From a virus (taxonomy: Duplodnaviria > Caudoviricetes): 64,000 bases of DNA. The stretch lies in the IMG/VR virus record IMGVR_UViG_2657245668_000002, positions 20,788-84,787 of that record, one strand, 5' to 3'. How positions within the stretch are numbered: position 1 is the stretch's first letter; each line of letters opens with the position of its first letter. A model generated the notes under the pieces. The model was not told the DNA's origin and did not search any database. It was given only the letters and a program-made list of their open reading frames with translations. The position numbers and the translations under genes were made by a program. Shown here in pieces: positions 2,338 to 63,390 of the stretch.

Positions 2338-2808
2338 TTACTCCACGGTGGCATTGATTTCAGCGATATGACCGGCACGGCCTAAAATCACTAACAAGGT
2401 GGTTAATGGGAAAACACGTTTTTTGCGTTGGTCTGAGGTCAGCGCAAGGACATCTTCCGGGCGGGAGCGGATAACAAAACCAAAATCAGCCACTTTAGTC
2501 ACGCCATCGTCAGGATCAACATAAGAGCCGGTACCCAGCACACCGTTATTGAAAAAGCGTTTGCAGGTAGTGGCAACCGTAGACAGTAACCCGTCATAGT
2601 CGCGTGGTGTCAGTGCGCGCTTGGTGCCAACATTAGCAATGTAGTTGTAGCCATCCACCTGAATATGGTTTTTCAACACATCCAGATTGACCACATCATC
2701 AATAAATTCGCCATAGGACGACATCGATTTACTGTTGATCACCCGGCTGTTATCAATTTGCCCGGCCAGTTCAATTTTAGTGAAAAACACCGCGTTCTTG
2801 GCTTTTAG
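2338..2808 (-). pseudogene. Tail sheath protein (DUF3383-like), C-terminal fragment
   Basis: GEFIDDVVNLDVLK...RAGHIAEINATVE resembles a sheath C-terminus; only ~155 aa remain; 5' end replaced by integrase sequence. Confidence 0.75.
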
Positions 2809-3404
2809 ATAATAATCCAGTGACACCGACACGCTCAGCTAAACCGGTGGTGAAACGTGAGCGCCTGGAACTGGATCAGTATCTCGCTATTCGTGAGGTC
2901 GCTGACACATTACCGGCGTGGTTCGGGTTATCAATGGATCTGGCGCTAGTCACTGGCCAACGCCGTGAGGATTTATCTCTGATGCGCTTTGACCAGATTG
3001 TTGATGGCAGATTACAGATAGACCAAGGCAAAACCGGAGCCATGATCTCCCTGCCCTTAGATCTTGAACTTAAAGCCGTTGGCCTACGCCTTAGCACCGT
3101 GATTGAACAATGTAAATTAGCCAGTAAAACAGACTTTATGATAAGTGCTGGCATCAGAAAAAATAGCCCTGACGGATCACTACATCCAGATAGCCTGACA
3201 AAGAAATTCGTAACGGCGAGAAAAGGAACAGATTTTCGTTTTGATGAGAGTCCGCCAACTTTTCACGAGATCAGAAGTCTCGCTGGGCGATTGTATGAAA
3301 AGGAAAAAGGTAAAGAATTTGCGATGAAACTGCTGGGGCATAAATCGGAGAAGATGACGAACAAGTATCTTGATACGAGAGGGAAAGAATACGTGATGCT
3401 ATAA
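2805..3404 (+). pseudogene. int: Tyrosine integrase, catalytic-domain fragment (N-terminus deleted)
   Basis: LDNNPV..KRERL..TGQRREDL..QGKTG..FHEIRSLAGR..LLGHKS..Y; colinear with the C-terminal half of the integrase at 62205-63314. Confidence 0.9.
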
Positions 3405-3450: not shown

Positions 3451-3488
3451 ACCACAAAATTCACCTTTAAAATCAACAGCTTAAAAAG

Positions 3489-3507
3489 AGACCGAATACG
3501 ATTCCTA
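3489..3507 (+). repeat. att core (attL of the intact prophage / attR of the remnant), AGACCGAATACGATTCCTA
   Basis: Identical 19-mer at 63397-63415 in the SdsR terminator. Confidence 0.92.
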
Positions 3508-3670
3508 AAGGTGAGAATTCTCAATTTTATCTATATAAAACAATAAGATAACCAGAGTTATGACCTTTAGCCTACGTTTAACACCGTCTTTAAAAGATCA
3601 ACATGATCATATACTTATCAGCTATTTCGAAAATTCTCGGGAAAATTTCGAGCGCTAAAATGAGGAAAAC

Positions 3671-3883
3671 ATGACTTCAACACTGTTTATAGTCTGCCTA
3701 ATGCTGACAGCCGTAATGATCACCATCCACCCTGCTCTCTGCGTTCCGTTTGTTATCGTCGCTTACCTGCTGGCGGGCAAAGGCAATATACACATGGACA
3801 GTAACACCAGTATCATTTTAGGTATCATCGGATTTATTCTGTTATTGGTTCTGTTCGTCATTGTGAAAGATACCCTCGAATAA
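3671..3883 (+). CDS. Small two-TM membrane protein
   Basis: 70 aa, two hydrophobic segments, SD GAGGA upstream. Confidence 0.6.
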   Translation: MTSTLFIVCLMLTAVMITIHPALCVPFVIVAYLLAGKGNIHMDSNTSIILGIIGFILLLVLFVIVKDTLE

Positions 3884-3926
3884 TTATTGGTGCTGTAATA
3901 TGGATTAATCGTTACTCAATCTGACA

Positions 3927-3950
3927 GTCGGTTAAGAGCGAGGAGCAGAA
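3927..3950 (+). repeat. Inter-cassette palindromic site, B unit (core GAGCGA)
   Basis: GTCGGTTAA-GAGCGA-GGAGCAGAA; related to units at 5035, 7195, 9970. Confidence 0.55.
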
Positions 3951-3994
3951 ACCGTGTCTATGAGTAATGAATTCAACATTAATGATGTGTAGTT

Positions 3995-4855
3995 TTACAA
4001 TCTATCACGAAGGAATTTCACCCCAAAAAAATGGCCTTTGTTCTTCTCTAGTATGCCGAGGTTTAAATCGTGAAAGTACCACATTAGCTTCGTTTTTTTT
4101 GGTTGTTCTAGTGATGGGATTTGTAATTTCCCATCTTTATATAATTGAGATATAAAATGGCTATCATTAATTTATGGGTCTATAGAGTTAATTGTATCTT
4201 CGCAATGTATTGCATAGCCAAATATTTCCAGTGTATGACCAGTGCATGTTACAGGATTTAGCATATATGGTTGGTTAGGCGGTATATCTCTTTCAAGATA
4301 CATACGGCGTATGTGAAAAAACTTAAGCGCATCCTCGCTGCCGTGGTAAAATACACTGTGAGGGGCGATAGCAACTATGGTGAAAGTATCTTTTGAAACA
4401 TCAGCGAAGATAAGATAGTTGCTTCGCCCTTTCGGGTTTTTGTTATTTCTTGGTGCAAAATGAAAGTGATACAGTCCTTCTCTGAGGACAAAAGAATCTA
4501 TATCTTTCCCTTTGCTTTTCAAAGAAGCACCAGGCAAAACAACACCATGCGTTCTAACTTGTTCAGATAGATATTGGTTTAGATCATCACCGTTAATGAC
4601 TTTATTTAGAAATCCTTTTATGTCAGGGTATTTGTTTATGAAAATATTGAAGTCTATCCCCATAGGAAAGACCTTAATGGTTCGTTTTCTTACCGGGACA
4701 GTTCTGATCTTCCATGTGATATAATTGGAAATGATTACTCTTGTCGGCATCTTTTCGAGTTCTGCTATTGCCATAGGAGTATTAGGAACCTTCGGTAATT
4801 CCTTAATCATCATTTGTCTGAAACGCTCTATACTAGCTGAATATTCGTCACTCAT
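3995..4855 (-). pseudogene. Uncharacterised putative defence protein (HFH motif) with internal TAA
   Basis: 227-aa ORF stops at TAA 4172-4174, but the same frame stays open for 58 more codons (INDSHFISQLY...WYFHDLNLGILE...DRL*, stop at 3995). Confidence 0.65.
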
Positions 4856-4942
4856 ATCTTCTGTTTCGCTGCATTACAAATGGCTCACTGGTATCGGTAT
4901 CAACATAAAACCATATGAGACAATTTTCAATTCATAAACGCC

Positions 4943-4964
4943 TGACCTGCTCATCGTTGATTAG
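4943..4964 (+). repeat. IS3-family (IS407/IS1222 group)-like terminal inverted repeat remnant
   Basis: TGACCTGCTCATCGTTGATTAG resembles the TGACCTGCTCCCCGTTGATTA-type IS end; no transposase follows. Confidence 0.5.
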
Positions 4965-4984
4965 CCTATTTTATTCTTAGCTAG

Positions 4985-5058
4985 GTCCGTTTTTGGCACA
5001 AAGTCGCCGGCACATTGTACACCAGATATCGACAGGCAGCTTCGAGCGAGGAGCGGAC
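4985..5058 (+). repeat. Inter-cassette bipartite palindromic site (A+B units)
   Basis: GTCCGTTTT-TGGCAC-AAAGTCGCC at 4985 and GGCAGCTTC-GAGCGA-GGAGCGGAC at 5035. Confidence 0.7.
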
Positions 5059-5309
5059 ATAAAACTCTTTTAGTTGCGTGCCATTTTTTGCCGGGTCAGT
5101 GCTATTTTTTTTACGGAGTCCTATCGGGCCATCAGGCTGCCAATCGTAACATATATACCGTCCCTTCTAGTGAGTTGAATAGTCATATTGAGAGCCAATG
5201 CAATATGGCTGACCCTTTAAAAAAGCAAAGGTGGAGGGAGACATTTTTTAGAATCTCCCTATATTGCTTTAGGTATTAGCTGTAGAACTTGCTTTAGAAA
5301 ACCAAGAGA

Positions 5310-6917
5310 TCATGATGGAATACTTTGTTGCGTCACTCTCTCTAGTATTTCTAAAATTTCATTTACGAAGTGTTTAGCTAAGTCTGTGCTTTTTCTTGTT
5401 TTGATATCTTTGATATTTAGGACTGACCATTTTTTACATTTTGCTTCATCATAAGATTCCCAAGATTTTTTTTGCAAAATGTCGTGAGAATAGTGAGCGT
5501 AAAACTCCTTATCTGAATATATGAACACTACCCATAAAGATACTTTAGGGAGTAATTGTAATTTAGGATTTAATTCAACCTTGAATATATTATTTTCATA
5601 ATAGCTTGTATATTCAAACCCTGATATATAACTTTCGTTGGTTTTTACATCTTTTAGAACCAACTCTTCTTCATGATGCCTTCTAGAGAAAAAAGAATCC
5701 ATTCGTCGGCTGGTTAAACCTAAAAGATCATCAATATACTCGTTTTTCTTCTTTACAATAATTTTTTCTGGTTTCACGTACTCTTTTTTTATTACTACTC
5801 GAGATGAGTAGGTTTGAGAAGCAAAAAGATTATTTTTCTTACTCAGCCAATCACCTATTTGTTCTTTGTTTGGCACGAATTTAACTGAACTATTATCAAT
5901 ATTTAAATTAAAGGCATCTTTTACATATTTAGGTATGGATTTTTCCAGACTGTCTTGGAATCCACCGAGCAAGGGCTCTATAGTCTTTTCATCAAAACAA
6001 ATACTGCTTGAACGAGCTGCTATAGCCTTTAGTTTTTCAGCCAATGAGTGTGATTCATTTTTTTCATCACTTTCCTCAGGAACAGTAGTTGTTTCTGTCT
6101 TAACCCCTATTTTATTCATGAGCTGAGATATCTGCTGCGTTGTGATTTTACCAAATCCGTCGAGATATGAACCTTGCATCACAAATATAGGTTGCTGAGT
6201 ATCAGAGTCAGCAGAGAATGCAGAGAATGCATCCGCTAGTTCTTTTGATAGATCAATATATCGCACATCTCTCTCTTGATCTAAAATGCAGCTTATTAGC
6301 TGATCTGTGAAGTAACTCATTCCCTTTCTATCAGCGTATGATACTTGATTATCTCTTGATGAGAAGAAATAATAAATATTTTCAAGCTCAAGCTTTCCTG
6401 CTTGTTTTTGCAAGATTCTTTCTTTGTTCTCTCGGGAATCCTTTATATATTTAGTGCCGCTAAAACAAGCGTCAATTATCTTTGTGAACACCCTTGGTTT
6501 TGCTTCTCTTATTAGCCCATCAAGGTAGTCTTCAGATAGTCCCGTCGAATTTTTTCTTTTCTCTTGAAAGTCATTCAGGACATAATAGTATTGATCTTCA
6601 ACTCTCTCTCCATGACCACTAAAGTAGAAAACAATCTCATTTATTTTTCTTCCTTTATATTCTTCTATTAAAGAAATTATTTGATCTTTAATTATGCTCG
6701 ATTTTTCATTTTTTAATATTATTGCTTTGTCGAACTTTTTTATCTCGATAGCAACAGCATGCATACGCTCAACATCTTTATCGCATGCCGGCAGTGCTTC
6801 ATATGCGGGGCTTTCATACTGCGATACGCCTATAAAAATACCAAGATTAACTGCTTCAGAGGGGGCTTTTGCGTTACTCATTAACTGCTCATCCATGTAG
6901 TGTTTTTTAGGGCTCAA
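5310..6917 (-). CDS. Caspase-like (peptidase C14) protein with unknown C-terminal domain
   Basis: IFIGVSQY..LPACDKD, FYFSGHG (His), IIDACFSG (Cys), QQP motif; start codon uncertain (6917/6896/6881). Confidence 0.88.
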   Translation of the reverse strand: MSPKKHYMDEQLMSNAKAPSEAVNLGIFIGVSQYESPAYEALPACDKDVERMHAVAIEIKKFDKAIILKNEKSSIIKDQIISLIEEYKGRKINEIVFYFSGHGERVEDQYYYVLNDFQEKRKNSTGLSEDYLDGLIREAKPRVFTKIIDACFSGTKYIKDSRENKERILQKQAGKLELENIYYFFSSRDNQVSYADRKGMSYFTDQLISCILDQERDVRYIDLSKELADAFSAFSADSDTQQPIFVMQGSYLDGFGKITTQQISQLMNKIGVKTETTTVPEESDEKNESHSLAEKLKAIAARSSSICFDEKTIEPLLGGFQDSLEKSIPKYVKDAFNLNIDNSSVKFVPNKEQIGDWLSKKNNLFASQTYSSRVVIKKEYVKPEKIIVKKKNEYIDDLLGLTSRRMDSFFSRRHHEEELVLKDVKTNESYISGFEYTSYYENNIFKVELNPKLQLLPKVSLWVVFIYSDKEFYAHYSHDILQKKSWESYDEAKCKKWSVLNIKDIKTRKSTDLAKHFVNEILEILERVTQQSIPS

Positions 6918-7152
6918 TCATAACCAAATGGCACTAAACAACCTATACCAGAAAACAGTTTTTTTTGCAGGTCATTCATAAGAGATACATATCCAACACT
7001 CATCATTAACCAGTACACACGGGGTTTTCTATAACGAGGGGGAGCGAACCTAGCGAAGATCACATCTTTTAATCTCTTCTTCTGATATCTGTAAAAGCAA
7101 CCCATAACTGAGCAAATAGAGCTATTCGTCATCCAACTAAGACATACTGTAG

Positions 7153-7218
7153 TCGCGCTGCTGGCACGAAGCGGACCGCCCGAAGCACCACGATGTCCGC
7201 TATGAGCGAAAAGCGGAA
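7153..7218 (+). repeat. Inter-cassette bipartite palindromic site (A+B units)
   Basis: TCGCGCTGC-TGGCAC-GAAGCGGAC at 7153 and GTCCGCTAT-GAGCGA-AAAGCGGAA at 7195. Confidence 0.72.
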
Positions 7219-7247
7219 GTTCAGAGTGCATATTTACATTGTTCTGT

Positions 7248-7270
7248 CTTCATAAATGGGGAACAGGTTA
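7248..7270 (-). repeat. IS3-family-like terminal inverted repeat remnant
   Basis: Minus strand TAACCTGTTCCCCATTTATG; 14/21 match to the 4943 copy, facing it. Confidence 0.4.
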
Positions 7271-7402
7271 GGTCGCTGATACCGACCGTGAGATCTTCTA
7301 TCAAATTGACTAAGTAGCTGCTAAACAAATTAAGTGCGATTATCGCTCTTTAAATATGTACACCTATATTTAAGGGGTACAAGTTGTAGTCAGAAGAAGA
7401 AA

Positions 7403-8686
7403 CTATTGCGGCCAATCCCAATGATCATATTGTCTAATTTTCTCTGCCAACTCTTGAGGCGCACCGCCATGAGTAAGGTTTGCTGCATAACCGATTCGTC
7501 CGATATAATTAATATTTTCAGAAGTGAGGGTGTTTGTCTCCCATGGTCTTATTCTGCAATTGGGTTCGCAAATGGCTACATCTCGATTAACAAATTTTAA
7601 CCATGAAATATTTATAACTTCCGCTCCTGCAGCCTTTAAATACATCCTGGCGGTTTCATGAGCATTTCCCTCAGTGCAGAAGTCATCAATAATTAGTACT
7701 TTCTTTCCACGCAATACTGGCCTGTTAACATATCGTTCTCCAGTGTTAAGATTTTTGATAGGAGAGGCGTTTAAATTCACAGTATTAGTTTGCGATGTTA
7801 TTATAACCTGTCGGCGCTCTATTCTTTCCTGCTGAGATTTTACGGCTGTAGTATGTCTTATAAAGAGATCTTTGAGATATTTACCTTTAAATGATACTGC
7901 CAACCCTTTGAGGTCATGCTCCATGATATTTGCCAACTTATAGGGGTCGTTAGCATTATGTCCAACATAAGTTGTGATAAAACTTGCACCTTCACTTAAA
8001 CCAGAGAAGTAAATACTAGCACCAAGATACCTAATCCAAAAATCAGGGCTCCCAATGGATAACTTAGCTAAGTTTCGTGCATTGGCAGAGTACATTGTAA
8101 ACTCAGGGTTATGAGTACTAAAGGGAGCTAAGGCATAATAGTGGACATCTTGGTTTAAGTGGCCCTGCCATCCCCATAATTCCTCTCTTAAACAAAACAC
8201 ATCGATAAATCTCGCAATCTCTTTTGGTTCAGAGAACTGAAAACCATACTCAGTGACCGGTTGATACCAAGTGGCATTAATAAATAAAGTTTTTCCATTT
8301 GTCGCGGCCTGTAAGTCTTCTTCTGAACGGCCAACATAAATTATCTCATTACGATTTATATCTAAATCATTCATGATGAAATCGGTGGCTCTTCCTGTTT
8401 GTTTCGCAGGTATTTCATTGTTAAGTTCACGGCAATAATGGATTGAGTCTGGGAATTGTTGCATAAGATAATCATCCAGTGCAATGTTTCCATTATTAGT
8501 CTTAACATTCCTATTATTATTTGTTAGAAAAAGGACTTTAATATTTTTAGATAATAAAAAAGCGAACAACTTCCTCAACTCAACATCGATTCGTGACTTA
8601 AGTTGCTGAGATTGCGGATTTGATGTTGTGGGCAAAACAACATCTGCTATTGAAAATATAACAGCTTTCAAATGCATTTTATTCAT
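7403..8686 (-). CDS. shosT: ShosT-like toxin: HAD-like domain + phosphoribosyltransferase
   Basis: KAVIFSIAD..LTNN..IYVGRSEEDLQAA (HAD-like) and KVLIIDDFCTEG (PRPP-binding loop); overlaps the dprA-like gene. Confidence 0.85.
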   Translation of the reverse strand: MNKMHLKAVIFSIADVVLPTTSNPQSQQLKSRIDVELRKLFAFLLSKNIKVLFLTNNNRNVKTNNGNIALDDYLMQQFPDSIHYCRELNNEIPAKQTGRATDFIMNDLDINRNEIIYVGRSEEDLQAATNGKTLFINATWYQPVTEYGFQFSEPKEIARFIDVFCLREELWGWQGHLNQDVHYYALAPFSTHNPEFTMYSANARNLAKLSIGSPDFWIRYLGASIYFSGLSEGASFITTYVGHNANDPYKLANIMEHDLKGLAVSFKGKYLKDLFIRHTTAVKSQQERIERRQVIITSQTNTVNLNASPIKNLNTGERYVNRPVLRGKKVLIIDDFCTEGNAHETARMYLKAAGAEVINISWLKFVNRDVAICEPNCRIRPWETNTLTSENINYIGRIGYAANLTHGGAPQELAEKIRQYDHWDWPQ

Positions 8687-9662
8687 CCCCCAGAAGTGAC
8701 AATTGTTGTAATTTATTACTAGATCTTGTTTTAATTAACTCCATCACATCTTTATATCCCGTCAAAGGAGTCTCCAATATTATTGCAGAGTATTCGTCCT
8801 GAGAGTATTTAATCTCCTCCCGAACAGATTCACCTCTTAGTAATGGACACAGTATCGTTCTCTTAAGTTGAGCAGCATTTCGAACCGTGTGCGACGTTCC
8901 GCTTTTCAAGTTCCATTCGACAGGAATTAAAATATCACTTAAAGCAGCCTGTATTCTGTTTCTACGAACAAAGTTTTCTTGCGATGGTTTTTGATGTGGG
9001 AGATACTCTGTGAGTATAAGTCCACCGGCATTTACAATACCCTCCCTAAGTCCAACACTGTTTTTTGGATAGTTAGAATTTAAACCTGTTCCTAGAACGG
9101 CTATTGTGGGTATTTTAAATAAAATAGATGCTTCATGAGCAGCTTGGTCAATACCATAAGCTAACCCACTTACAGTTACATAATCTGATGCAATAAACTG
9201 CGAGACAACTGCTTGTGTTAAATAAATTCCAAGAGTAGTTGGATTTCTTGTACCAACAACACCAACACATTTTTTACTAAGCAATGAAGTATCGCCCTGC
9301 GCAAAAATCCAGTAAGGGCGCTCATTTAAATCATTCAATTTCTCCGGATAATCTGGAGAACCATGATGTATTAATTTATAACCGCTGCTATGATAGTGTG
9401 TTAAAAGACTTTTCGCGGCAGAAATCATTCCATCACGAAAAGTCGACCAATTATTCTCAGTCAAAGAATATGGTGCACGATGTAGTTTCACTCCGAGAAT
9501 TGATTCGAATTTTGATAATGTGGAGCAAGTTACAACATCTCTGAAACGGATCCCTTTTTGAGCAACCTTATATAGGGACCAATAACTAACGCCACGTATT
9601 TCTGATAGAACTAGCAAAGCAGCGCTTTCTGTGTTCCATCGAGCTGTATCAGTATCAGTCAT
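8679..9662 (-). CDS. shosA: ShosA-like DprA/Smf-family antitoxin
   Basis: YPEKL, VGVVGTR, VSGLAYGIDQAAH, IAVLGTG, FVRRNRIQAALS, SGTSHT; probable ATG at 9662. Confidence 0.88.
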   Translation of the reverse strand: MTDTDTARWNTESAALLVLSEIRGVSYWSLYKVAQKGIRFRDVVTCSTLSKFESILGVKLHRAPYSLTENNWSTFRDGMISAAKSLLTHYHSSGYKLIHHGSPDYPEKLNDLNERPYWIFAQGDTSLLSKKCVGVVGTRNPTTLGIYLTQAVVSQFIASDYVTVSGLAYGIDQAAHEASILFKIPTIAVLGTGLNSNYPKNSVGLREGIVNAGGLILTEYLPHQKPSQENFVRRNRIQAALSDILIPVEWNLKSGTSHTVRNAAQLKRTILCPLLRGESVREEIKYSQDEYSAIILETPLTGYKDVMELIKTRSSNKLQQLSLLGDE

Positions 9663-9848
9663 AGCGTTCGCCAAAAATGAAGTGTTTTATTGTTTTTATC
9701 ATAGGTTTGAGAAAATGTGTAGTAAGTCTAAAGAAGGACTTCTAAAAAGCATGAATCTGCATCAGTATGCATGCCAAATTAACAATCTAATCTGCGTTAC
9801 GCACCAGAGCAGTTGAAGTCCAGTTAACACCGCCTCATAAAGCGGGCA

Positions 9849-9867
9849 GGCGTGGCGGGTAAAGCAT
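9849..9867 (+). other. P2/P4/186-type cos-like sequence
   Basis: GGCGTGGCGGGTAAAGCAT, 18/19 match to the 186-type cohesive end GGCGTGGCGGGGAAAGCAT, preceded by AAAGCGGGCA and TGCAT repeats. Confidence 0.75.
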
Positions 9868-9931
9868 GGCACTCAGGATCACCGTAACAAACATCCCAAT
9901 TTTGACTTACTGCCACCGTCAGCCACTTAAT

Positions 9932-9993
9932 GTCCGCTGTTGGCACTTACCTGCCTCTCAAAAATCTCGGTCTGCTCAGAGCGAGAAACAGAC
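9932..9993 (+). repeat. Inter-cassette bipartite palindromic site (A+B units)
   Basis: GTCCGCTGT-TGGCAC-TTACCTGCC at 9932 and GTCTGCTCA-GAGCGA-GAAACAGAC at 9970. Confidence 0.7.
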
Positions 9994-10387
9994 TTTATTG
10001 CCATGCCAAGAAGGGGCTAGCAGCAACCATTGGTTATGCGATTCGGCCACCAATGCGGCGCTATATTCCCGAGTTGTGGGTGAAAATAAAAAGGATATAA
10101 GCAATAATCCCTTTCAAATCGAATGAAAAAACCAGTCAAAACGGGCGTCTAAAGCTGTATGAACAGATTTTACAAAAAGCACAGCGTTGTCCAACATTGC
10201 TTTACCCTATTAAAAGAAAATTGCCGGATCGCCACACGCTCAGAAAAACGGCTTGAGCTATCTAAGCATGCTCTGATTGGACTCCATCCGTTTGTTTTTG
10301 AAGAAATTGCTAAGTTAAGAGACGTAGTCTAATCTTTATTGATACAATGGAAGTCGCAATTCACTAACATGAGGTCTGAGTGTATCT

Positions 10388-12217
10388 ATGGGGGCATTTA
10401 CTGGAGCAGTGTTAACCTCAGCAGCTAATAATCTCGCAAAAAAAACAATAGAGTCCACTTTTGATTTTTTAGTCAAAAAATACGAGTTAATAGACATACT
10501 GAGATTTAAGGATCACTACCTAGAGTATTGTGAAAAAAATTTAGAAATAAAAACATTAGTATCTCAAGATAAATCCTTTCACGTTGATGACATTTACATC
10601 CCGATCCATATAATGCAATCAGGCACTCAGACCAGACAAGAAATAAACGGAATTACTACTTTAGATAATGATAGAGCCATATTGATAAAAGGGTTGGCGG
10701 GACAAGGAAAATCAACGTTATTGCGAAAGCTATTATCTAACAATGCGAAAAGATTTAGCCGACTTCCTGTTTTTTATGAACTTAAAAATTATAATGGTGG
10801 AACTTTAGAACTATCAATATCAAAATCATTAAGTCATTTTGGAGTCAAAATATCAGAGCATGCACTAAAAAAACTACTTTCAGATAGTAATGTAAAAATA
10901 TATCTTGATGCGTTTGATGAGGTTAGACCTGAATTTAGATCTGAACTAACTGATGAAATAAAACGTTTTATTAACTCGTTTAAGTGTCATGTGATTTGTA
11001 CAAGTAGACCTGACACTGAAATAGATGCCTTATCCGAGTTTAGAACGTTTTCAGTATGCGAATTAACTGAGGAGCAAATATTTGGGATTATAAAAAAAAC
11101 AGCATCTGATCAAGAAAAATGTAATGAACTATGTGATGCTCTTAGGCGAAGTCCTTTACATACAAACAAAGATTCAATTCTCAAGTCACCTATATTAGTC
11201 GTTTTGTTCTGCATCAGTTACAACTTAGGCGAAGATATACCAAATACACTGTCACAATTTTATTCAAACATTTTCGATACTGTCTTTCATAGGCATGACA
11301 ATATAAAAGGAAAAGTATATAGAGAACGTCACTGGAATGATAACAGACGTATTTATAGAGAGCTTTTCGATTGTTTATGTTTCATTTCTCTAAGAGATGG
11401 TCTAAATGGATTCAGTCATGAGAAACTAGTAAAATTTGTATCAATTTCACTTACGCATATAAATGAAGAGTGCTCCATAGCTGAAAAGGCTGTAAAAGAG
11501 TTATCTTCTATTACAAATTTAATTATCGAAGATGGATTTAATGAATACCGCTTTGTTCATAAGTCAATTCAAGAATTTTTTGCCGCATCATTTATTACAT
11601 CATTACAGCATGATAAAAAAATATCATTTTATAAAAAATGCTTTAACGATTATCATTTTTACACTACATTTCATAACACCTTATTCTTCCTAGAAGAATT
11701 AGATTATTATAATTACCATGAGTATGGTTTTATTCCTGCAATAACCAACTTCCTCTCTTTATCTCAAGATATAACCATTGATAATTACACAATTCCCACT
11801 TCTGTTAAAGATTCTTTCTTGAATGATATTTACATTCGCACCAAATACTCTATTTTTAAAGCTGGCACTAGAGAGAGCTATGAATTAGAGAAAACAAATT
11901 TCACCTTTGATATATCAGAGTCCTACCCAAGTCTACTTTCGAGTATATTTATATTTTCTCTTGACTTTATAAAAACAGATCTAACTGACAAGGAATTAAT
12001 AACCCTTACTAAAAAAAATAAGAATATGTCAGTAAATGGTTGGTGTAAGCTAAGCATTAGGACAATCCTCGAATTTAAAAAGCTGCCTGAAACAGTTGCT
12101 TTAGATGCATTAAAAATAGGCATTGACGTACTTATTAGAAGAAAATTCAATAAAGCAATTGATAAATTAAATAATAGAAGAGAATCATTAAACTCAACTG
12201 ATTATTTCAACTTTTAA
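10388..12217 (+). CDS. NACHT/STAND NTPase, bacterial NLR-like anti-phage protein
   Basis: Walker A GLAGQGKST, Walker B IYLDAFDE, sensor TSRP, SPIL, winged-helix YRFVHKSIQEFFAA. Confidence 0.9.
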   Translation: MGAFTGAVLTSAANNLAKKTIESTFDFLVKKYELIDILRFKDHYLEYCEKNLEIKTLVSQDKSFHVDDIYIPIHIMQSGTQTRQEINGITTLDNDRAILIKGLAGQGKSTLLRKLLSNNAKRFSRLPVFYELKNYNGGTLELSISKSLSHFGVKISEHALKKLLSDSNVKIYLDAFDEVRPEFRSELTDEIKRFINSFKCHVICTSRPDTEIDALSEFRTFSVCELTEEQIFGIIKKTASDQEKCNELCDALRRSPLHTNKDSILKSPILVVLFCISYNLGEDIPNTLSQFYSNIFDTVFHRHDNIKGKVYRERHWNDNRRIYRELFDCLCFISLRDGLNGFSHEKLVKFVSISLTHINEECSIAEKAVKELSSITNLIIEDGFNEYRFVHKSIQEFFAASFITSLQHDKKISFYKKCFNDYHFYTTFHNTLFFLEELDYYNYHEYGFIPAITNFLSLSQDITIDNYTIPTSVKDSFLNDIYIRTKYSIFKAGTRESYELEKTNFTFDISESYPSLLSSIFIFSLDFIKTDLTDKELITLTKKNKNMSVNGWCKLSIRTILEFKKLPETVALDALKIGIDVLIRRKFNKAIDKLNNRRESLNSTDYFNF

Positions 12218-12335
12218 TTAGGATTGTATAATTCACATCATATTTTAAAACATACAAACCTATTTGGATTTATTCTATGAAGCAACTAAAACTATAGTCA
12301 GTGACAGCATTGTTTTACTCAAAAATTAATAAATT

Positions 12336-12362: not shown

Positions 12363-12363
12363 A

Positions 12364-15300
12364 TTACTTATTAAAATACGGATTCACACGTTCCACCGCC
12401 TGTTGTACCAGTTTATTTCTGGTTGCCATCAGCCGGTCTATCTTTTCTCTTTTCTGATCCGCTGTTAGTATCCGGTCCCGTCTCATCATTTCAATCTGGG
12501 CATTCAGTGCTTTCACTTGTTTCTGAGTCGCTGTTAGCCCCTGACGCTGCGATAACTTACCCCTATTTTCCTCTATCAATTCATTGGCATCATCGCCACG
12601 CCCCTGTTTGCGGAAGCTGTTAATGGTGCTGTTGATCTGGTTGGCTTCGGTCATCATGCGGTAAAAATCTTCGGTGAATTGGGTAGACTTGGCCGGATCG
12701 GAACCTCGGAAGAAGGATTTAATCACCGGCATCTCATCCAGGCGCATGGCCGGGGTTTCGCCGTAGTCTTTCAGGTTACTCATCAGCAGATTGGTCGCGC
12801 CCATCACATAGCTGCCCAGGCTGCCGGTATACCCCATGGCAATATGATCCAGCATCTTCGGTGACATATTGGTAGCCTGCCCAACTTCACGCATTAACAG
12901 GCTTGTCTGGTCGTTATAACGAGCACCCGCAATCAAATTGCTGTCGGCCATGTTCTCAATCGGGCCACCTTTGAAGAAATCATAGTTAACATAAGCCTCA
13001 GCAATCGGCATCGCGACTTGTGGGATAGGGTTGAATGCCATCGTTTCCATAAAGTTATGCGCCACCAGCTTGCCAAATTTAGCCCCGGTATCTTTACCGC
13101 CCAGCGCGCGGACAAATCGCTCGGGTAAAGTGCCAAACATCAAGCCAATCTCAAACGGTTTCGGGAAACGGATATGCTGACCACCAATCCATGCATGCCA
13201 ATAGGTGTCTTTATCCCAGTCCTGTAGCTCTTCATAACGCTTATCGTCCCAATTTAGCGCCATCAGTGCCAGAGAGGCCGCCGTAATCATGCCGCCGCGC
13301 TTCAGCACTTCACGCGGGTTCTCTTTGATACCTCGGCCTAATTTACTCAGCCCCTGCATGCGGGCGTTGAAGAACGGCAGCATATCACTCAGGTTAATCA
13401 TGATATTGCTGGCACCCATCATGCTAAAGTCCATCAAATCACGCGATTCAAATGCTGCCTGAGCCTTACTTTTCCCTGATTTAATGGCGGCCTCATAAGT
13501 GGCCAGTCGGTTAGCATTCTCCGCCGCTTCGCTGAGATTTTTATATTTATGCAAACCCTGTTCAATCTTGCCCATCACCTCTTTGCTGTTACGGGCAATT
13601 GAGGACTCAAACTCTTGTATCTGACTATCGGTGTAACCTTTACGCCGTAGAACACTACGAATGGTTTTAGCAGTCGATGCCGGATCATAAACATTCGAAT
13701 AACCACCACCAAAAGTGGCACCGGCAAACATCATATCCACCAGGCTATCATCAGTGCGTAATGCTTTTTTAAATCCGGCCCATGAAGCGGTAACAGGCTT
13801 AAAACCATCTTTGTTAATGGCCCATGAATGAATAGAGTCACGCATAAAGTTACGAATGATAAAGTCAGGCATGGATGTGGTGCTGACGGTCAGCACCTTT
13901 TTAGCCTGGCGGGCCGCTTTCATAAAGGTGGAATTACTGCGCTCAAGGTCAATCATGGTAAAGGCGCGATACAGTTCAGGATCATTAACCTGTACCAGTT
14001 TTTCCTGCCCATCAACAAACACCTTCACCACATCTTTGCCGATGCGCTCAAAGTCCATCTTGTTCGGTGATTCAATCACCTCCAGCACACCAGTATCAGC
14101 AAGGTTCACCACTGACCTGCGCATTGCTTCATTTTTCATCGAAGCATCGACCGATTTCGCCACGTAGTTAAACAGGTTTTCGATAGGATCCTTAATGGTC
14201 AAATCACTGCCTTTTAACTTGCGTACGGTACTGCTCTGGTTGGCAATGCCTTTGCTGGTCCACGGCCCCTTTACCTCGCCATTTTCTGCTTCACGGTAAT
14301 ATGGCAAGTACCAGGCATCCTCCCACTGTGCGCGGCTTTCTGGATCAATCAATCCCATATCCTGTTGCAGATCCAGAATCGATTTAATAAAGGCATCATA
14401 CTTTTTCTTCTGGCCTTCGAATAAAGTCTCATTACCCCGGCTGAGAGTTTTCATATAAGCAATTTCGTCGGCATTAAAGTTGTTCTCTTTGCCCTCTTTC
14501 ATCAGCCGTTCAGAGCGATGGCCGGCGATCCATTTAAAGAAGTTTTCCCGATGGTTTCCCAGTCCGTCGAGAATACCCATAAGAGCGTCCTCTTTACCGG
14601 TACCGGATTGTCGCTCTACTATCCCTTCGACTTTATTATAGCGAGGTAAGCCATGTTCTAAAGTGGCAGCAGTAACAGAGCCTGCCCCGGCAGCCATACG
14701 CGCTCCAATGTAGGCAGAACTTCGTGCATCATTGATACCAGCCGCATCCTCGGCATACTTCAGCGGAGCCATGCCATCAAAGGTTTTAGTATTGAGTTTA
14801 CGGCCAGTTTCTTTTAGCCAGGCTTTCAGTTCCGTTTTATCTTTGCTGGTCACTGTACCGTAGAAAGTCTTGGCCTTATCAAACCACCCCTGCTCAACGT
14901 TAAAGCCCATTTTGCGGCTGGTTTCAGCATCCATTGATGGGTTAGCAGTGCGGGAGTAAAGTGCCTTATTCTTGCGAATATCGGTTGATGAGAGTATATT
15001 TTCAACTGAATCTTGATTTGGTGAACCGCGTTTGAGCAATTGAAGCTCTTGGGCCGTACCAGATTGGGATTCTGAACCCTGATAAGTGTTCTCCTTGGGC
15101 AATTGAAGCCCTCTGGAATGAAGCTTCTCAGGGTTTTGTTTTTCTCGCTTGTATAAAGTTAACCCCGCATCTTCCATCCCATTAATTTTTTGCATCCCAC
15201 CAACAGTGCCATAAACAGATGCAATTTTATTGACCTCAATAAATCCTTTTTTTGCATTCAAGTGGATAGCTGTTACTACTGGGTTATTGCTTACATCTTT

Positions 15301-18300
15301 TGCCTCTAATAAAACGACAACGGCATTATCCTGAGTCGATGAGCGATAGACTGCCAGCGGGTCATGTAGTAGTTCAGGCAATTGTTCGATGATCGACATT
15401 GGCACTTCATGCTTAATACCATTAGTAGCTTTGCGGACCGTATCACGGGTAATAAACATATCCAGATTCGGTGCACCCAATGCTTTCAGCACTGGAGGTG
15501 TTCTACCTAATTTTACTGGTGTGTCTACTGAGCGTAGTGACCGCATAGCCTTATCAAGTTCAGATCTATATTGCTCGGCTTCCACCGGCACTGGCTTGAG
15601 TGGGTCAACATCATCATGTTTCGAATACAACGCATCAGAGCGAGAGAAAGTATTATCAAACTCCCGCGTTCCCGGTTGTTCGCCATCATACATAGCCGTC
15701 TTTTTGAAGCGCCCCGCGACCGTGCGCAGAATATTACGTATTTCCGTTGGGGAAATGTCATTCGCATTCATGATGCCCGTTTTCTTCAATCCATTGATCA
15801 GCACAGAAACAAAACGGTCCCACATCGCTCCAAGGCCGGTGAGTTCTGAACGCTCAGCCATGTGAGCCAAAAACTCATTAGCCTGCATTTCGAGAGACTC
15901 ATTGCGGTATGATTTATCGACTTCCCGCCATACATCCTGAATTTCTTTATTTTTGCTGTCACGCGTTTGATGTAATACACGCATGATACGATCATATTCC
16001 ACATCGCCAATGACGGAAGCTAGCCCGTGGTGCGCCAAGACCTCATGCCGCAATTTAGCCCGAAGCTCGCGGTCAGAAGTAATGTTATCCGCTACCACAA
16101 TCACCCGGCTAAGTTCAGGTTGATAAATGGCATGGACAATGCCGAATTCTTTTGGGATCCCGCTCGGCATCATGGCAGCCGCTTCAGCTTGGGTTTGCAC
16201 TACCTTAACTTTGATTTTTGCTGCACCATTCAAATTGCGCACCCAGACATCAGCGATAACTTGAGCCCGCCCTTGCCGTATTCCCTGAGTGGGTTTGTCG
16301 CCAGCAGCAGTGTGACCGGTATCTGAAATCACATTGCCTTTGCCAATGTCAGTACCCTTACGCGAGTAGAAAGCGATACCTTTATCGGTTGGCTTGGTTT
16401 TGAGCGTTTGGAATAGGTGATCAAATGCCTGGCGCACGCCGCCGTTTAATTCAGCTTCGGTTGGATAGGCATAAGTTTCGGGGTTTGCATGTTCGTCAGC
16501 TTTACGCAGGTTAACCAGATAGTCGTTACTGATACCTTTACTCTGTGCTTTATCCAGCAGGTAGCGTTCAAAAGCTCGTGCCGACATTTCCAGTTTAGTC
16601 GTCCAGTATGCCTTGCTTCGACTCCCGTCCAGCAATGAGGCACGTTCCATCATTCCACTATGGGTAACTTTCTCGACGACGCTCTTAAAGGCGTCATGCA
16701 CCTCTTGCCTGACTGGATGGATGATTTCTTGCCTTTTACCGCCGCTAAATTCATAGCGAGGACGTTTACGATCGGTAATAAATTCAGATGAACGCTTACC
16801 GGACGACTCGCCATGGACATCATAGGTACCAAAATAGTTATCCAGTGCATGGAACCACTCATGTGCAAGTGAGCCTGCGCCATTACCTTTAGTTAGATTG
16901 ATAACCACTTGCCCAGGCTCATAATGAGCTTTGGCCCCCGCCTTACCTCGCGCGCCAAATGCCAAGCCCAACTCGCCATTCAAGGACAGCGCTTGTGGCG
17001 GCACATTCAGTAATTCGGCCATATCAACCAACGAGTCATAAGCATCGTTTAATTCAGTTTGTCGGCGCGCACCCTCAACATAGTTACCAAACTGCACACC
17101 TCGGAAGCCAAATGCATCACTAAATTGTTCAGGCGTCACATTGCCATTACGGCGTTCAATTCCTATCCGGGGCTCGTTGGTTAATTTGCGTTGTTCTTCT
17201 CGCGATGTTTTGCGTAATTTATCCAGTTTGGCTTCTATTTCAGCGCGATTCTCTGCCAGATAAGCGCGTGCTTCGGTAGGTGTTTTGAAGCCAGCTTTAA
17301 GCGGTAACACGCCCATGGCCCCTTTGTAGCCAATAAACACACTCTTGTCTGCCCGTCGGGTATAGATCTCTAACTTAGCCTGTCTAGGCGTTAACTGAGC
17401 CTGTTTAAGCGCGTCATCTCCTTTATCACTATTAATCTTGGTCTCAATAAATTCCTTGGCTTTGGGTAATAGCTCCGGTATTGAACCCGCTGAAATGTCA
17501 GTTTTCATCCCTCCAGGGGTAACCAGCTCATATAGGGTTTTCCCACCGGGATAGCTCTTGCCATCAAAGTAAGTGTAATGGCCGGAACGAATTGAGTATT
17601 TTGACGCTTCGGCCATATGCTCAGGCTTAAACTGCGAGATTAAGTCAATAGCATCTGCGGCAGAACGTAAGGAGGACTTACTGCGGAAAATGGTTTTTAT
17701 ATCGTCAACACTCGCATGGCTATTGATAATGGAACCCGCTAAATCACGAACTCCCTTAACCTGTTCTGCCCACTGATTAAGCTTATAAGGGGATCCCGGC
17801 TTGGTGGGGATAAACGAACGCAATGCTGCAAGCAATGCCAGTTTCCCTGGTTCAATGCCATTCTCATGCATTTTGGTGTAGTCAGGGTGCGGGAATAGTT
17901 TCGAAAGAGGCTGTTTCTTAATTTCTTCAATATCATGATCGGCTTTCAGTGACTCTGCCAATTGGCCCCATTTATGCTTCGCCGCCCCCTTAAGTTCCTC
18001 ACCAAAATCATCAATTTTTGCGTCCCTGTTTTTGGCTTGCCCCACTGGCTCAGGTACGGGTAAGCGGACACCGTACCCCTTTCCTACCGGTTCAATCGTG
18101 GCACCCGGCATCCTGCCCCATTTGGAATACTTAGCGACTTTCTCACTGTTGAAGGGTTTGCCGAGATGCAGTCTTAATTCACCGACTTGCTGCTCACCAG
18201 ACGCCACAACGCCCTCATTAGAGGGCGCTGTTTTCGTATTTGCCGTTGTTGGCTCAGGTGGCAATCGCACACCAAAACCATCACTAACCGGTTCAATCAC

Positions 18301-20712: not shown

Positions 20713-21284
20713 TGGGCGCTCCAAATTTCAGACGTAAAAAAAGCCTCATTGTGAGGCTGTTCGATAGTATTAATAAGGTCCGGTTGAGCGAGATCTTTAA
20801 TCCGTTCATATTCAAGATTAAGTCTGTGTTTTTCCTTCTTTCTCGCATTCATCAATCGACTACCGATAGTCCCCTTAACCTTCGAAACATTTTCTTTTAT
20901 GGCAAATAGATGCTGTGCTTGTTCACCAATTGCGCGACGACGCTTTAGTTGCTCTGCCATCCAGTTGAAAGCATTGATATACGCCTCTTTAATCGCTGTC
21001 GCAGGTTTACCGGTAAATCCCATAATTAACATCATGCAGCCATCACGGGTTATATTAAACATCGGCTGCGTATCGCCATTTTTATCAATGAAATCAGTGG
21101 GCGCAAAATTGCGCTGGGTAAAATCATCGGAACATTTCAGGTTTCGAATTGCCCTTAGAACATCTTTGTGACGCTTGCTAAAGCATTGAGCAACCTTAAG
21201 TGAGGTGGTTATCACTTTGTTCTCTGACATAACCACCATGTCTCGAAAATCAAATTGTGGGATGACTACCATTTGTTTGTTCAT
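20709..21284 (-). CDS. Rha-family phage regulatory protein
   Basis: TTSLKVA..KRHKDVLRAIRNL..ITRDGCMMLIMGFTG..KEAYINAF; ATG at 21284 with SD AAGGA. Confidence 0.9.
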   Translation of the reverse strand: MNKQMVVIPQFDFRDMVVMSENKVITTSLKVAQCFSKRHKDVLRAIRNLKCSDDFTQRNFAPTDFIDKNGDTQPMFNITRDGCMMLIMGFTGKPATAIKEAYINAFNWMAEQLKRRRAIGEQAQHLFAIKENVSKVKGTIGSRLMNARKKEKHRLNLEYERIKDLAQPDLINTIEQPHNEAFFTSEIWSAQ

Positions 21285-59227: not shown

Positions 59228-59241
59228 GAGGTTTAATTAAC

Positions 59242-61960: not shown

Positions 61961-62230
61961 ATGACCAAACTACTGACATTAGAAGAATGGGCGGAAGAAA
62001 CCTACCGCAGCAAGCAACCAACCCCCCAGACACTCCAGCGCTGGGCGCGAGGCGGCAATATTTACCCTGCCCCTGAAAAACATGGGCGGGAATATCGTGT
62101 ACAGCCAGGTGCTATTTATATTCAACCTAAAAGCTATCGCTTAGCCAAAAAAATAATAAAAGCCTCACCCGATGTTAACTCACCATTAATAGAGAGAATT
62201 AATCATGGCATCAAGGCCGCAAAGATATGA
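61961..62230 (+). CDS. xis: Excisionase
   Basis: LTLEEWA..TLQRWARGGNIYPAPEKHGREYRV, lambda Xis family. Confidence 0.92.
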   Translation: MTKLLTLEEWAEETYRSKQPTPQTLQRWARGGNIYPAPEKHGREYRVQPGAIYIQPKSYRLAKKIIKASPDVNSPLIERINHGIKAAKI

Positions 62231-63314: not shown

Positions 63315-63328
63315 ACCGAGTATCAAGA

Positions 63329-63357
63329 TTTCGGACAAATTTCGGACATTTTCGGAC
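63329..63357 (+). repeat. Integrase arm-type sites, 3x TTTCGGAC
   Basis: Copies at 63329, 63340, 63350. Confidence 0.7.
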
Positions 63358-63390
63358 GAACATGAAAAATATCAATAAAATCAATAGAAT

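What the first reader, a model, noticed from the sequence alone, without database searches (positions are those of the whole stretch)
3927..12217. Defence cargo organised as a cassette array delimited by an unnamed bipartite 9-6-9 palindromic site
Seen: every junction between cargo units carries the same-orientation 24-bp element GTCCGCT-NN-core6-NN-AGCGGAC (inverted arms around an asymmetric hexamer). At three junctions (4985-5058, 7153-7218, 9932-9993) a TGGCAC-core unit is followed 38-50 bp later by a GAGCGA-core unit. A lone GAGCGA unit sits at 3927. Order: membrane gene | HFH gene | caspase | ShosTA | NACHT. The cores are invariant while the arms drift. I saw no copies in the phage backbone. 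Established: inverted arms around a 6-8 bp asymmetric core is the layout of tyrosine-recombinase sites (dif, loxP, pdif modules). These are not dif or integron attC sequences. Inference: a site-specific capture/shuffling platform for anti-phage cassettes, with a recombinase supplied in trans. I cannot name this element family.
Basis: partly seen in the sequence, partly recalled or inferred. Interest (0 to 1): 0.82.

Follow-up and report, generated by a model that had tools for sequence, protein, structure and literature searches.

The report
Two-site cassette boundaries in enterobacterial prophages
The repeated 24-base sites between the defence genes are real and belong to a widespread enterobacterial system in which gene cassettes sit between two kinds of short site and are swapped at those sites, which could explain how phages trade defence genes, though the enzyme is unknown.

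Summary
The window has seven same-strand 24-bp units. Four are B units (core GAGCGA; 3927, 5035, 7195, 9970) and three are A units (core TGGCAC; 4985, 7153, 9932). None occurs elsewhere in the 84.8-kb record.

The grammar is general. In 118 IMG/VR loci and 120 bacterial genome loci, cargo lies between B on the left and A on the right (0.27-7.1 kb). A is followed by B within 50 bp, mostly at 42 bp.

The same units flank fun(Z) in phage P2. They are the inner ends of the Z-region inverted repeats annotated in GenBank records I attribute to Nilsson et al. 2004. So the element is not wholly unnamed.

They also occur in lambdoid prophages, plasmids and chromosomal arrays with metabolic cargo, so the system is not defence-specific.

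Comparative breakpoints fall at the cores. Another strain replaces window 3942-9940, from the end of the B0 core to the start of the A3 core. Two other organisms hold only 7204-9936, the ShosTA cassette.

Cores are near-invariant, arms drift without covariation, and A/B hybrid cores are almost absent (1 of about 509).

Best reading: heterospecific double-stranded recombination sites that allow cassette exchange only between like sites. No recombinase was found. Homology-driven exchange by phage RecET or Red remains a live rival.

The parts
2338..2832 (-). C-terminal fragment of a tail sheath gene, a remnant of another prophage outside the array
   Evidence: phrog_205 tail sheath, profile positions 290-432 of 455
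2820..3404 (+). C-terminal 194-aa fragment of a tyrosine integrase. It abuts the sheath fragment and belongs to the remnant, not to the array
   Evidence: PF00589 E 9e-17; phrog_7244 positions 165-262 of 263; 49% identical to the intact integrase at 62205-63314
3467..3508 (.). attL: partial duplicate of the 3' end of the ryeA/sdsR locus, marking the left end of the prophage that carries the array
   Evidence: Alignment with 63376-63417; Rfam SraC_RyeA and SdsR_RyeB at 63387-63532
3671..3883 (+). 70-aa membrane-like ORF. It is backbone, not cargo
   Evidence: Conserved in relative G006 and in run X12 up to B0
3927..3950 (+). B0 unit (core GAGCGA), the left boundary of the array. It is preceded by AATCTGACA, as in P2-type flanks
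   Evidence: Homology with G006 ends inside or just after it. Homology with X12 ends at 3941, the last core base
3951..4984 (-). Cassette 1: 227-aa ORF at 4172-4855
   Evidence: Weak PADLOC PD-T4-7 match, E 1.7e-7; no Pfam hit
4985..5058 (+). Junction 1: A1 (4985-5008), a 26-nt spacer, then B1 (5035-5058)
5059..7152 (-). Cassette 2: caspase-domain protein at 5310-6917. The 105-aa ORF at 6914-7231 has a 5' end that overlaps junction 2
   Evidence: PF00656 E 9e-18
7153..7218 (+). Junction 2: A2 (7153-7176), an 18-nt spacer, then B2 (7195-7218). Start-to-start distance is 42 bp
   Evidence: The X15 and X16 contigs start matching at 7204, the first base of the B2 core
7219..9931 (-). Cassette 3: ShosT (7403-8686) and ShosA (8679-9674)
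   Evidence: PADLOC ShosT E 9e-290, ShosA E 1.5e-191. Found alone in two other organisms with boundaries 7204-9936
9932..9993 (+). Junction 3: A3 (9932-9955), a 14-nt spacer, then B3 (9970-9993)
   Evidence: Homology with X12 resumes at 9941, the first base of the A3 core
9994..12217 (+). Cassette 4: NACHT/STAND NTPase at 10388-12217
   Evidence: PF05729 E 1.3e-7
12218..12320 (.). Right edge of the array. It has no terminal A unit, which appears to have been lost by deletion
   Evidence: Relative G006 has A at G006:26220-26243. Alignment resumes about 55 nt after that A
12364..20724 (-). 2786-aa polyvalent protein, the backbone gene right of the array
   Evidence: PF18819 MuF_C plus LPD1, LPD5 and LPD38; 94% DNA identity to G006
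58442..60228 (+). Exonuclease VIII-like and RecT-like genes of the same prophage, possible agents of the rival homology-driven exchange
   Evidence: phrog_412 E 1.6e-89; phrog_148 E 2.6e-54
62205..63417 (+). Intact prophage integrase (62205-63314) and attR (about 63376-63417)
   Evidence: blastp to integrases in other loci; alignment; Rfam

Best explanation
The units are double-stranded DNA recombination sites of two heterospecific kinds.
- A: GTCCGCT-NN-TGGCAC-NN-AGCGGAC
- B: GTCCGCT-NN-GAGCGA-NN-AGCGGAC

Both share arms, which I read as protein half-sites. They differ in a near-invariant 6-bp core. A cassette always lies between a B on its left and an A on its right. In arrays each A is followed about 18 bp later by the next B.

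Shown:
- Exchange happens at like sites (B with B, A with A).
- The break falls within or at the edge of the core. The left arm of B and the right arm of A stay with the backbone. The right arm of B and the left arm of A travel with the cargo.
- The result is cassette replacement, like engineered recombinase-mediated cassette exchange with lox or FRT spacer variants. A with B does not recombine, so cassettes are held stably and loci are never empty.

Inferred:
- In arrays, recombination between two direct B units (or two A units) would excise a circle carrying cargo plus one A-spacer-B junction. That circle could enter any like site, so arrays can grow.
- The catalyst is a site-specific recombinase acting in trans. 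The layout fits a tyrosine recombinase with a 6-bp overlap region. No enzyme was identified.

In this window the system stacks four cassettes next to attL of a prophage with a P22-like portal, integrated at ryeA/sdsR: a PD-T4-7-like gene, a caspase, ShosTA and a NACHT NTPase.
For: 1. Grammar. In 118 viral loci there are 240 units, only 4 on the minority strand. There are 77 B-to-A steps, all 317-5856 bp. Of 32 A-to-B steps, 27 are 50 bp or less and 22 are exactly 42 bp. In 120 genome loci there are 347 units, 7 on the minority strand. There are 94 B-to-A steps of 273-7106 bp. Of 87 A-to-B steps, 69 are 50 bp or less and 44 are exactly 42 bp.

2. Breakpoints on the window's own array.
- The X12 contig matches 3603-3941 and 9941-12400, with 5214 other letters between. 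That runs from the end of the B0 core to the start of the A3 core.
- X15 and X16, from other organisms, match only 7204-9936. That runs from the first base of the B2 core to inside the A3 left arm, within a different P2-type flank.
- Relative prophage G006 shares flanks up to B0 and carries a single different cassette.

3. The same 269-aa cargo sits in a lambdoid locus (L101) and a P2 locus (L102). The B right arm and the A left arm move with the cargo.

4. Position-wise association. B positions 4, 6, 8 and 9 follow the upstream flank. B positions 16, 17, 21 and 24 follow the cargo. A positions 1-9 follow the cargo, and A position 17 follows the downstream flank.

5. Cores. Among sites with good arms in 2.1 Mb of loci, the cores are GAGCGA 307, TGGCAC 200, hybrid GAGCAC 1 and hybrid TGGCGA 0. 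The predicted hybrid sites have 0 hits each in IMG/VR.

6. Arm positions vary independently. The observed Watson-Crick fraction equals the shuffled expectation, both within units and across doublets. Arms therefore look like half-sites, not stems.

7. The units sit in unrelated backbones: P2 G/FI, lambdoid replication/nin, this phage, plasmids and chromosomes.
Against: - No recombinase gene is consistently adjacent. Prophage integrases lie far from the arrays, and none was found in the 120 genome loci of up to 8 kb each by blastp with one integrase query, which has limited sensitivity.
- No free circle, empty site or excision product was seen. The one raw-read run laid 0 reads, so there was no test.
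- Crossover can only be placed between positions 9 and 16, because the core never varies.
- Samples for the association test are small: 11 B units and 14 A units in the informative clusters.
- One boundary (9936) lies in an arm, not in the core.
- Spacer length varies from 12 to 19 nt.
- The window's prophage, and many lambdoid phages, encode RecET or Red-type systems that can use short homology.
- The loci were ascertained through the B pattern, so the presence of B is by construction.
Confidence: 0.55

Rival explanations
1. The units are only short conserved homology anchors. Cassettes are swapped by general or phage-encoded single-strand-annealing recombination (RecA, RecET, Red, Erf) between the 24-27-bp units. 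No dedicated site-specific enzyme is involved.
For: - The window's prophage encodes exonuclease VIII-like and RecT-like proteins.
- No adjacent recombinase was found.
- One boundary lies in an arm (9936).
- Homology breaks coincide with the unit edges, as expected for any shared sequence.
- A 2026 paper lists homologous and illegitimate recombination as candidate mechanisms for P2 hotspot exchange (passages read).
Against: - It does not explain why a 6-bp core is near-invariant while the arms drift. An anchor should conserve contiguous identity throughout.
- It does not explain two fixed core types in a strict B-cargo-A order with almost no hybrids, even though A and B share both arms.
- 24 bp with drifting arms is very short for efficient homologous exchange (general knowledge).
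- P2-like phages are not known to carry such systems (recalled).
Confidence: 0.27
2. A and B are attL/attR-type hybrid products of integrase-like insertion. The crossover would fall at the shared central GC, a 2-bp overlap as in serine recombinases. The partners would be a backbone site with core GAGCAC and a cassette-circle site with core TGGCGA.
For: - The cores share only the central GC.
- Backbone-side half-sites read G-W next to the centre, and cassette-side half-sites read T-S.
- One GAGCAC site exists in an Erwinia array, at L247:9986.
Against: - The predicted empty and circle sites have 0 hits each in IMG/VR, against at least 117 loci for B.
- Only 1 hybrid was seen among about 509 good-arm sites.
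- A-spacer-B junctions inside arrays are not predicted by simple insertion.
- P2 hotspots are reported never to be empty (passage read).
Confidence: 0.1
3. The units act as single-strand hairpins: attC-like folded sites, REP-like elements, terminators or RNA structures.
For: - The arms are inverted repeats.
- B is close to the reverse complement of A, with 2 core differences, so an A-spacer-B doublet can fold.
- A consensus-like doublet folds better than shuffles (z -3.19).
- The cargo-side flanks AAY and RTT recall attC R boxes.
Against: - There is no covariation at any arm pair, within units or across doublets.
- Two of the window's three doublets fold no better than shuffles (z 0.37 and 0.29).
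- Only 1 of 7 units looks like a terminator.
- No Rfam family matches.
- Cargo orientation is independent of unit orientation.
- Genomes hold 7-19 units clustered in a few loci, not hundreds scattered.
Confidence: 0.04

Closest known systems
P2 Z-region (Z/fun) cassettes with left and right inverted repeats. I attribute these to Nilsson, Karlsson and Haggard-Ljungquist 2004, Mol Biol Evol 21:1. The paper is not held here; only its title, citing passages and GenBank features were seen.
   Same: Same sites. In AJ512685 and AJ512677 the annotated inverted repeats end, on the cargo side, in an A and a B unit. P2's own fun(Z) lies between a B-like and an A unit. The Z-region is cited as a hotspot of 'diverse accessory gene cassettes' (passage).
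   Different: Here the sites are in a non-P2 phage next to attL, as a four-cassette tandem array with A-spacer-B junctions. The long P2 flanking repeats are absent apart from AATCTGACA. Whether the 2004 paper defined the 24-bp two-core units, arrays or non-P2 contexts I could not check.
Engineered recombinase-mediated cassette exchange with heterospecific lox or FRT spacer variants (recalled)
   Same: Two sites with the same arms but incompatible cores flank a cassette. Only like sites recombine, giving replacement without excision.
   Different: This is a natural system with no known recombinase. The arms are 7-10 bp and the core 6 bp. Cleavage positions are unknown.
pdif modules of Acinetobacter plasmids, which depend on XerC/XerD (recalled)
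   Same: Small modules of accessory genes are bounded by short arm-core-arm sites, with the recombinase supplied in trans by the host. The same modules are found in different replicons.
   Different: The unit sequences do not resemble dif as I recall it; this was not tested with a tool. Modules here are bounded by two site kinds in one orientation, with doublets between modules, rather than by shared single sites of alternating orientation.
Integron attC cassette arrays
   Same: Both are tandem arrays of promoter-independent cassettes separated by roughly 60-70-bp imperfectly palindromic junctions. A cassette circle would carry one junction.
   Different: No intI was found nearby. No structural covariation was seen. 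Crossovers fall inside both units, not at one GTT. The terminal units are halves embedded in the backbone.
PeSL (promoter-early stem-loop) motifs that mediate modular shuffling in T4-type phages (recalled)
   Same: Short repeated motifs at the boundaries of variable genes in phage hyperplastic regions, proposed to drive shuffling.
   Different: Those are promoter plus stem-loop regulatory units tied to gene orientation. The units here are independent of orientation and come in two kinds.

Membership tests
P2 Z-region inverted-repeat cassette system | Cargo flanked by the conserved repeats whose cargo-side ends carry the GAGCGA and TGGCAC sites | tested here: met
   The inner ends of the annotated repeats in AJ512685 and AJ512677, and the P2 fun(Z) flanks, are A and B units. 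The window's seven units fit the same consensus.
P2 Z-region inverted-repeat cassette system | Location between tail fibre assembly gene G and sheath gene FI of a P2-like phage | tested here: not met
   The window's array lies between attL and a polyvalent-protein gene, in a phage with a P22-like portal.
Heterospecific tyrosine-recombinase core sites | Inverted arms around a 6-8-bp asymmetric core | tested here: met
   Consensus from 227 A units and 294 B units.
Heterospecific tyrosine-recombinase core sites | Recombination only between sites with identical cores | tested here: inconclusive
   Breakpoints at like sites and near-absence of hybrids fit this. It is comparative evidence only.
Heterospecific tyrosine-recombinase core sites | A cognate recombinase that binds the arms and cleaves at the core edges | tested here: not met
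   No conserved neighbouring recombinase was found. A trans-acting enzyme is not excluded.
Integron attC | Folded single strand with conserved pairing, plus an adjacent or genomic intI | tested here: not met
   No covariation. No integrase in the 120 genome loci by blastp. The exchange points lie inside both units.
Xer/dif-type sites (pdif modules) | XerC and XerD binding arms around a 6-bp centre | not tested
   The units look unlike the dif consensus as I recall it. No tool comparison or Xer dependence test was possible.
REP, BIME or MITE-type dispersed repeats | Many copies scattered in intergenic regions, independent of cargo boundaries | tested here: not met
   Five genomes held 7-19 matches each at up to 3 mismatches, clustered in a few loci. 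The B-cargo-A grammar is strict.
Intrinsic terminators | GC-rich stem followed by a T run, oriented with the gene | tested here: not met
   Only B3, read on the minus strand, was flagged among the 7 units. Cargo occurs in both orientations.

The most novel reading that the evidence does not exclude
Enterobacteriaceae and their phages, plasmids and chromosomal islets share one natural two-site cassette-exchange system. Two heterospecific 24-bp sites would be served by a still unidentified trans-acting site-specific recombinase. Any B-cargo-A module could then move between otherwise unrelated replicons and stack into integron-like arrays without an integron integrase. This would be the missing mechanism for exchange of defence systems between P2-like phages and other mobile elements.
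Probability: 0.4. Interest if true: 0.85.

Novelty: new variant of a known kind. Interest (0 to 1): 0.66.

Why it matters
Defence hotspots of P2-like and other prophages turn over fast. A 2026 survey still lists the mechanism of exchange with unrelated mobile elements as open, and notes that P2 hotspots are never empty (passages read).

Short portable sites shared by P2-like, lambdoid and other prophages, plasmids and chromosomes would explain both facts. They would also give a sequence handle for finding cassettes of unknown function. In a sample of one genome per species from the same family, 33 of 101 carry the B unit. Among complete E. coli genomes, 1610 of 5426 carry an A-spacer-B junction.

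The system makes a directly testable prediction: exchange requires identical cores. If an enzyme exists, it would be a natural cassette-exchange tool.

Tried and rejected
- Megablast of the array and of the backbone against phages and E. coli genomes gave no match.
- Rfam gave nothing at the units, with gathering or E-value thresholds.
- The predicted hybrid sites gave 0 hits each in IMG/VR.
- Full-text search for six 15-mers of the units found 0 papers. Two keyword searches found no paper describing the 24-bp units.
  - Rousset 2022 has 0 occurrences of palindrome, inverted repeat or stem-loop.
  - The NAR 2026 paper has 0 occurrences of palindrome, motif or hairpin.
  - Passages seen in three other citing papers gave no detail. 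A further keyword search returned one unrelated paper.
- I looked for a conserved neighbour gene by clustering ORFs of all loci. Only context-specific backbone genes, or broad families such as LysR and SDR, recur.
- blastp with the window's integrases found only distant prophage integrases in viral loci and none in genome loci.
- HSP ends cannot resolve the crossover inside a unit, because both partners share the unit.
- Only 7 doublet pairs shared upstream flank or cargo and 2 shared downstream cargo, too few for statistics.
- Run X21 (raw reads) laid 0 reads, so excision circles were not tested.
- Supplementary files of papers were not consulted. They may hold hotspot boundary data.

Full report
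**What is in the window**

Seven same-strand 24-bp units lie between 3927 and 9993. Four have the core GAGCGA; I call these B (3927, 5035, 7195, 9970). Three have the core TGGCAC; I call these A (4985, 7153, 9932).

The arms approximate GTCCGCT and AGCGGAC and carry 0-4 mismatches. The cores are exact in all seven. The arms-only pattern is enriched: 5 matches against 1.39 expected, and 0 of 100 shuffles reach 5. In the whole 84,787-bp virus record no unit lies outside the array, and the backwards control pattern gives 0.

The order is B0, cassette 1, A1-B1, cassette 2, A2-B2, cassette 3, A3-B3, cassette 4.
- Cassette 1 is a 227-aa ORF with a weak PD-T4-7 match.
- Cassette 2 is a caspase-domain protein.
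- Cassette 3 is ShosT and ShosA.
- Cassette 4 is a NACHT NTPase.

Cargo is on either strand, so unit orientation is independent of gene orientation.

**Setting**

The right end of the window holds the SraC/RyeA and SdsR/RyeB locus. A roughly 40-bp duplicate of its 3' end lies at about 3467-3508. An intact integrase lies at 62205-63314.

The array therefore sits just inside attL of a prophage spanning about 3.5-63.4 kb. That prophage has a P22-like portal and a 2786-aa polyvalent protein.

Left of attL is a remnant of another prophage: a sheath fragment fused to an integrase C-terminal fragment. This integrase fragment is not part of the array.

**The units form a large family with a strict grammar**

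A scan of one genome per species stopped at 120. Because the loci were chosen by B, the presence of B is by construction. The presence and placement of A are not.

| Measure | 118 viral loci (incl. window) | 120 genome loci |
|---|---|---|
| Units at up to 3 mismatches | 240 | 347 |
| Units on the minority strand | 4 | 7 |
| B-to-A steps | 77, all 317-5856 bp | 94, all 273-7106 bp |
| A-to-B steps | 32 | 87 |
| A-to-B steps of 50 bp or less | 27 | 69 |
| A-to-B steps of exactly 42 bp | 22 | 44 |

So cargo always lies between a B on the left and an A on the right, and A-spacer-B doublets separate cassettes. Unit centres fall within ORFs of 70 aa or more in only 36 of 240 cases.

**Where they occur**

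Flanking genes identify several unrelated backbones:
- P2-like phages, between tail fibre genes H and G and sheath gene FI;
- lambdoid phages, between the O, P and Ren-like replication genes and a hok-like gene;
- loci next to DinI-like, umuD-like or polymerase-like genes.

Phage P2 itself has a B-like unit before fun(Z) and an A unit after it.

GenBank records AJ512685 and AJ512677 ('P2-EC67/EC31 proviral Z-region') annotate a 'left inverted repeat' and a 'right inverted repeat'. Their cargo-side ends are exactly an A and a B unit. I attribute these records to Nilsson et al. 2004, whose title speaks of site-specific recombination. The paper is not held, so I know its content only from recall. 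[quoted passage not shown]

Distribution in bacteria:
- In complete E. coli genomes an A-spacer-B doublet is found in 1610 of 5426 genomes, at 1-4 places each, with no annotated feature under the match in any of the 30 listed hits. The two inspected were a P2-like Z locus and a Qin-like prophage.
- The B unit occurs in 33 of 101 sampled genomes of the same family, in 2 of 151 of the order, and in 1 of 401 of the class. The centre genome is counted each time. The control pattern gave 0 throughout.
- Named hits are mostly Erwinia, Pantoea, Rahnella, Klebsiella, Citrobacter, Enterobacter, Yersinia and Serratia. A few are Idiomarina or Alteromonas, and some are on plasmids.
- Five genomes each held 7-19 matches at up to 3 mismatches, clustered in a few loci.

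**Cargo**

Among 131 representative cargo ORFs from the viral loci there are CBASS cyclases and E1-E2, Tmn, ShosTA, a group IV reverse transcriptase, PD-T7-1 and SAVED-TIR. There are also GNAT, HAD and other enzymes.

A 22-kb chromosomal array in [Erwinia] mediterraneensis, about 3 kb from an isocitrate/isopropylmalate dehydrogenase-family gene, carries AraC and short-chain dehydrogenase genes, a phytase-like gene, an MFS transporter, DeoR and GNAT. Other chromosomal loci around the units hold LysR, LysE, aldo-keto reductase and arsB/arsC genes. The system is therefore a general accessory-gene cassette system. Defence cargo is typical of its prophage copies.

**Where exchange happens**

Four lines of evidence agree.

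1. A related prophage (G006) shares both flanks with the window at 88-94% identity but has one different cassette. Homology stops at B0.

2. Contigs of public runs laid on the window:
   - Another strain of the same organism matches 3603-3941 and 9941-12400, with 5214 other letters between. The replaced block runs from the last base of the B0 core to the first base of the A3 core.
   - Two other organisms match only 7204-9936, the ShosTA cassette. That runs from the first base of the B2 core to the fifth base of the A3 left arm. There the upstream flank is of a P2-type kind.

3. The same 269-aa cargo occurs in a lambdoid locus and a P2 locus. The right arm of B and the left arm of A travel with the cargo. 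The left arm of B and position 17 onward of A stay with the backbone.

4. Across all units, B positions 4, 6, 8 and 9 are predicted by the upstream flank. B positions 16, 17, 21 and 24 are predicted by the downstream cargo. The reverse holds for A. The informative samples are small, 11 and 14 units.

The crossover thus lies between positions 9 and 16, that is in or at the edge of the core.

**What kind of site**

- Arm positions show no covariation, within a unit or between the A and B of a doublet. The observed pairing equals the shuffled expectation for all 28 position pairs tested.
- Two of the window's three doublets fold no better than shuffles.
- Only one unit looks like a terminator.

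These results argue against hairpin-based readings such as attC-like sites, REP elements, terminators or RNA.

The cores are the most conserved part. Among good-arm sites in 2.1 Mb there are 307 GAGCGA, 200 TGGCAC, 1 hybrid GAGCAC and 0 TGGCGA. The two predicted hybrid sites have no exact hit in IMG/VR.

An invariant centre with drifting arms is the reverse of what an operator shows. It is what a strand-exchange region that must match between partners would show. Two core types with shared arms and no hybrids are what heterospecific sites would give.

This fits cassette exchange between like sites. It also fits the published remark that P2 hotspots are never found empty.

The cargo-side flanks extend the sites: cAAY before A and RTT after B. 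The commonest spacer is 18 nt (70 unique sequences), and spacers range from 12 to 19 nt.

**What is not shown**

No recombinase was identified. Nothing recurs next to arrays across contexts, and integrases are distant or absent. No circle or excision product was observed, because the only raw-read run did not hold the locus.

The window's prophage encodes exonuclease VIII-like and RecT-like proteins. Exchange by short-homology annealing therefore remains a serious rival, although it does not explain the core and arm pattern or the absence of hybrids.

A 2-bp (GC) att-type model is weakly suggested by half-site dinucleotides and by one GAGCAC site. The missing empty and circle sites count against it.

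**Novelty**

The inverted repeats of the P2 Z-region and the idea of site-specific insertion there date from 2004. The following were not found in the text I could search:
- the 24-bp two-core definition;
- the strict B-cargo-A grammar;
- tandem arrays with 42-bp doublets;
- occurrence outside P2, as here;
- the heterospecific-site logic.

**Verdict**

The element is a new variant, and a wider view, of a known kind. It is of real interest because it offers a concrete, testable mechanism for defence-cassette exchange.

Noticed in passing
window 2338-3415: A tail sheath C-terminal fragment (minus strand) abuts and overlaps an integrase C-terminal fragment (plus strand) at about 2820-2832. A second partial att copy (AAAAGACCGAATA) follows at 3403-3415. 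This looks like a decayed prophage in tandem at the same ryeA/sdsR site.
   Followed up: partly
window 63387-63532: Complete SraC/RyeA (169 bits) and antisense SdsR/RyeB (110 bits) sRNA genes serve as the prophage attachment locus.
   Followed up: partly
window 3420-3447 and 3624-3651: Direct repeats rich in ATTTCGA(T)AAA lie on either side of attL. They may be integrase arm-type or accessory-factor sites.
   Followed up: no
window 12364-20724: A 2786-aa polyvalent protein with MuF_C, LPD1, LPD5 and LPD38 domains lies directly right of the array. A bidirectional terminator-like hairpin sits at 12336-12357.
   Followed up: partly
L247:9986-10009 (G003, [Erwinia] mediterraneensis): This is the only hybrid-core site seen, GTCCGCTTTGAGCACAAAGGGGAC (B-left plus A-right). 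It lies inside a 22-kb chromosomal array and may be the scar of an A-with-B deletion.
   Followed up: no
L185 (Idiomarina seosinensis) 570-4728: Two cassettes lie head to head (A' B' then B A). This shows inverted arrays outside Enterobacteriaceae.
   Followed up: no
loci L006, L018, L019, L038, L040, L059, L070, L071, L073, L085, L089, L107, L110, L121: The same cargo start (attgctaacagcattctgtgtgaat and variants) follows B in many different backbones. This is a very common cassette of unknown function.
   Followed up: no
runs X15 and X16, right of window position 9936: In the two other organisms the ShosTA cassette ends in a site with the inverted A core (GTGCCA) and a degenerate outer arm, not a standard A.
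   Followed up: no
window 6914-7231: The first ~26 codons of this 105-aa ORF overlap units A2 and B2. Its true start is probably further in, or the ORF is spurious.
   Followed up: no
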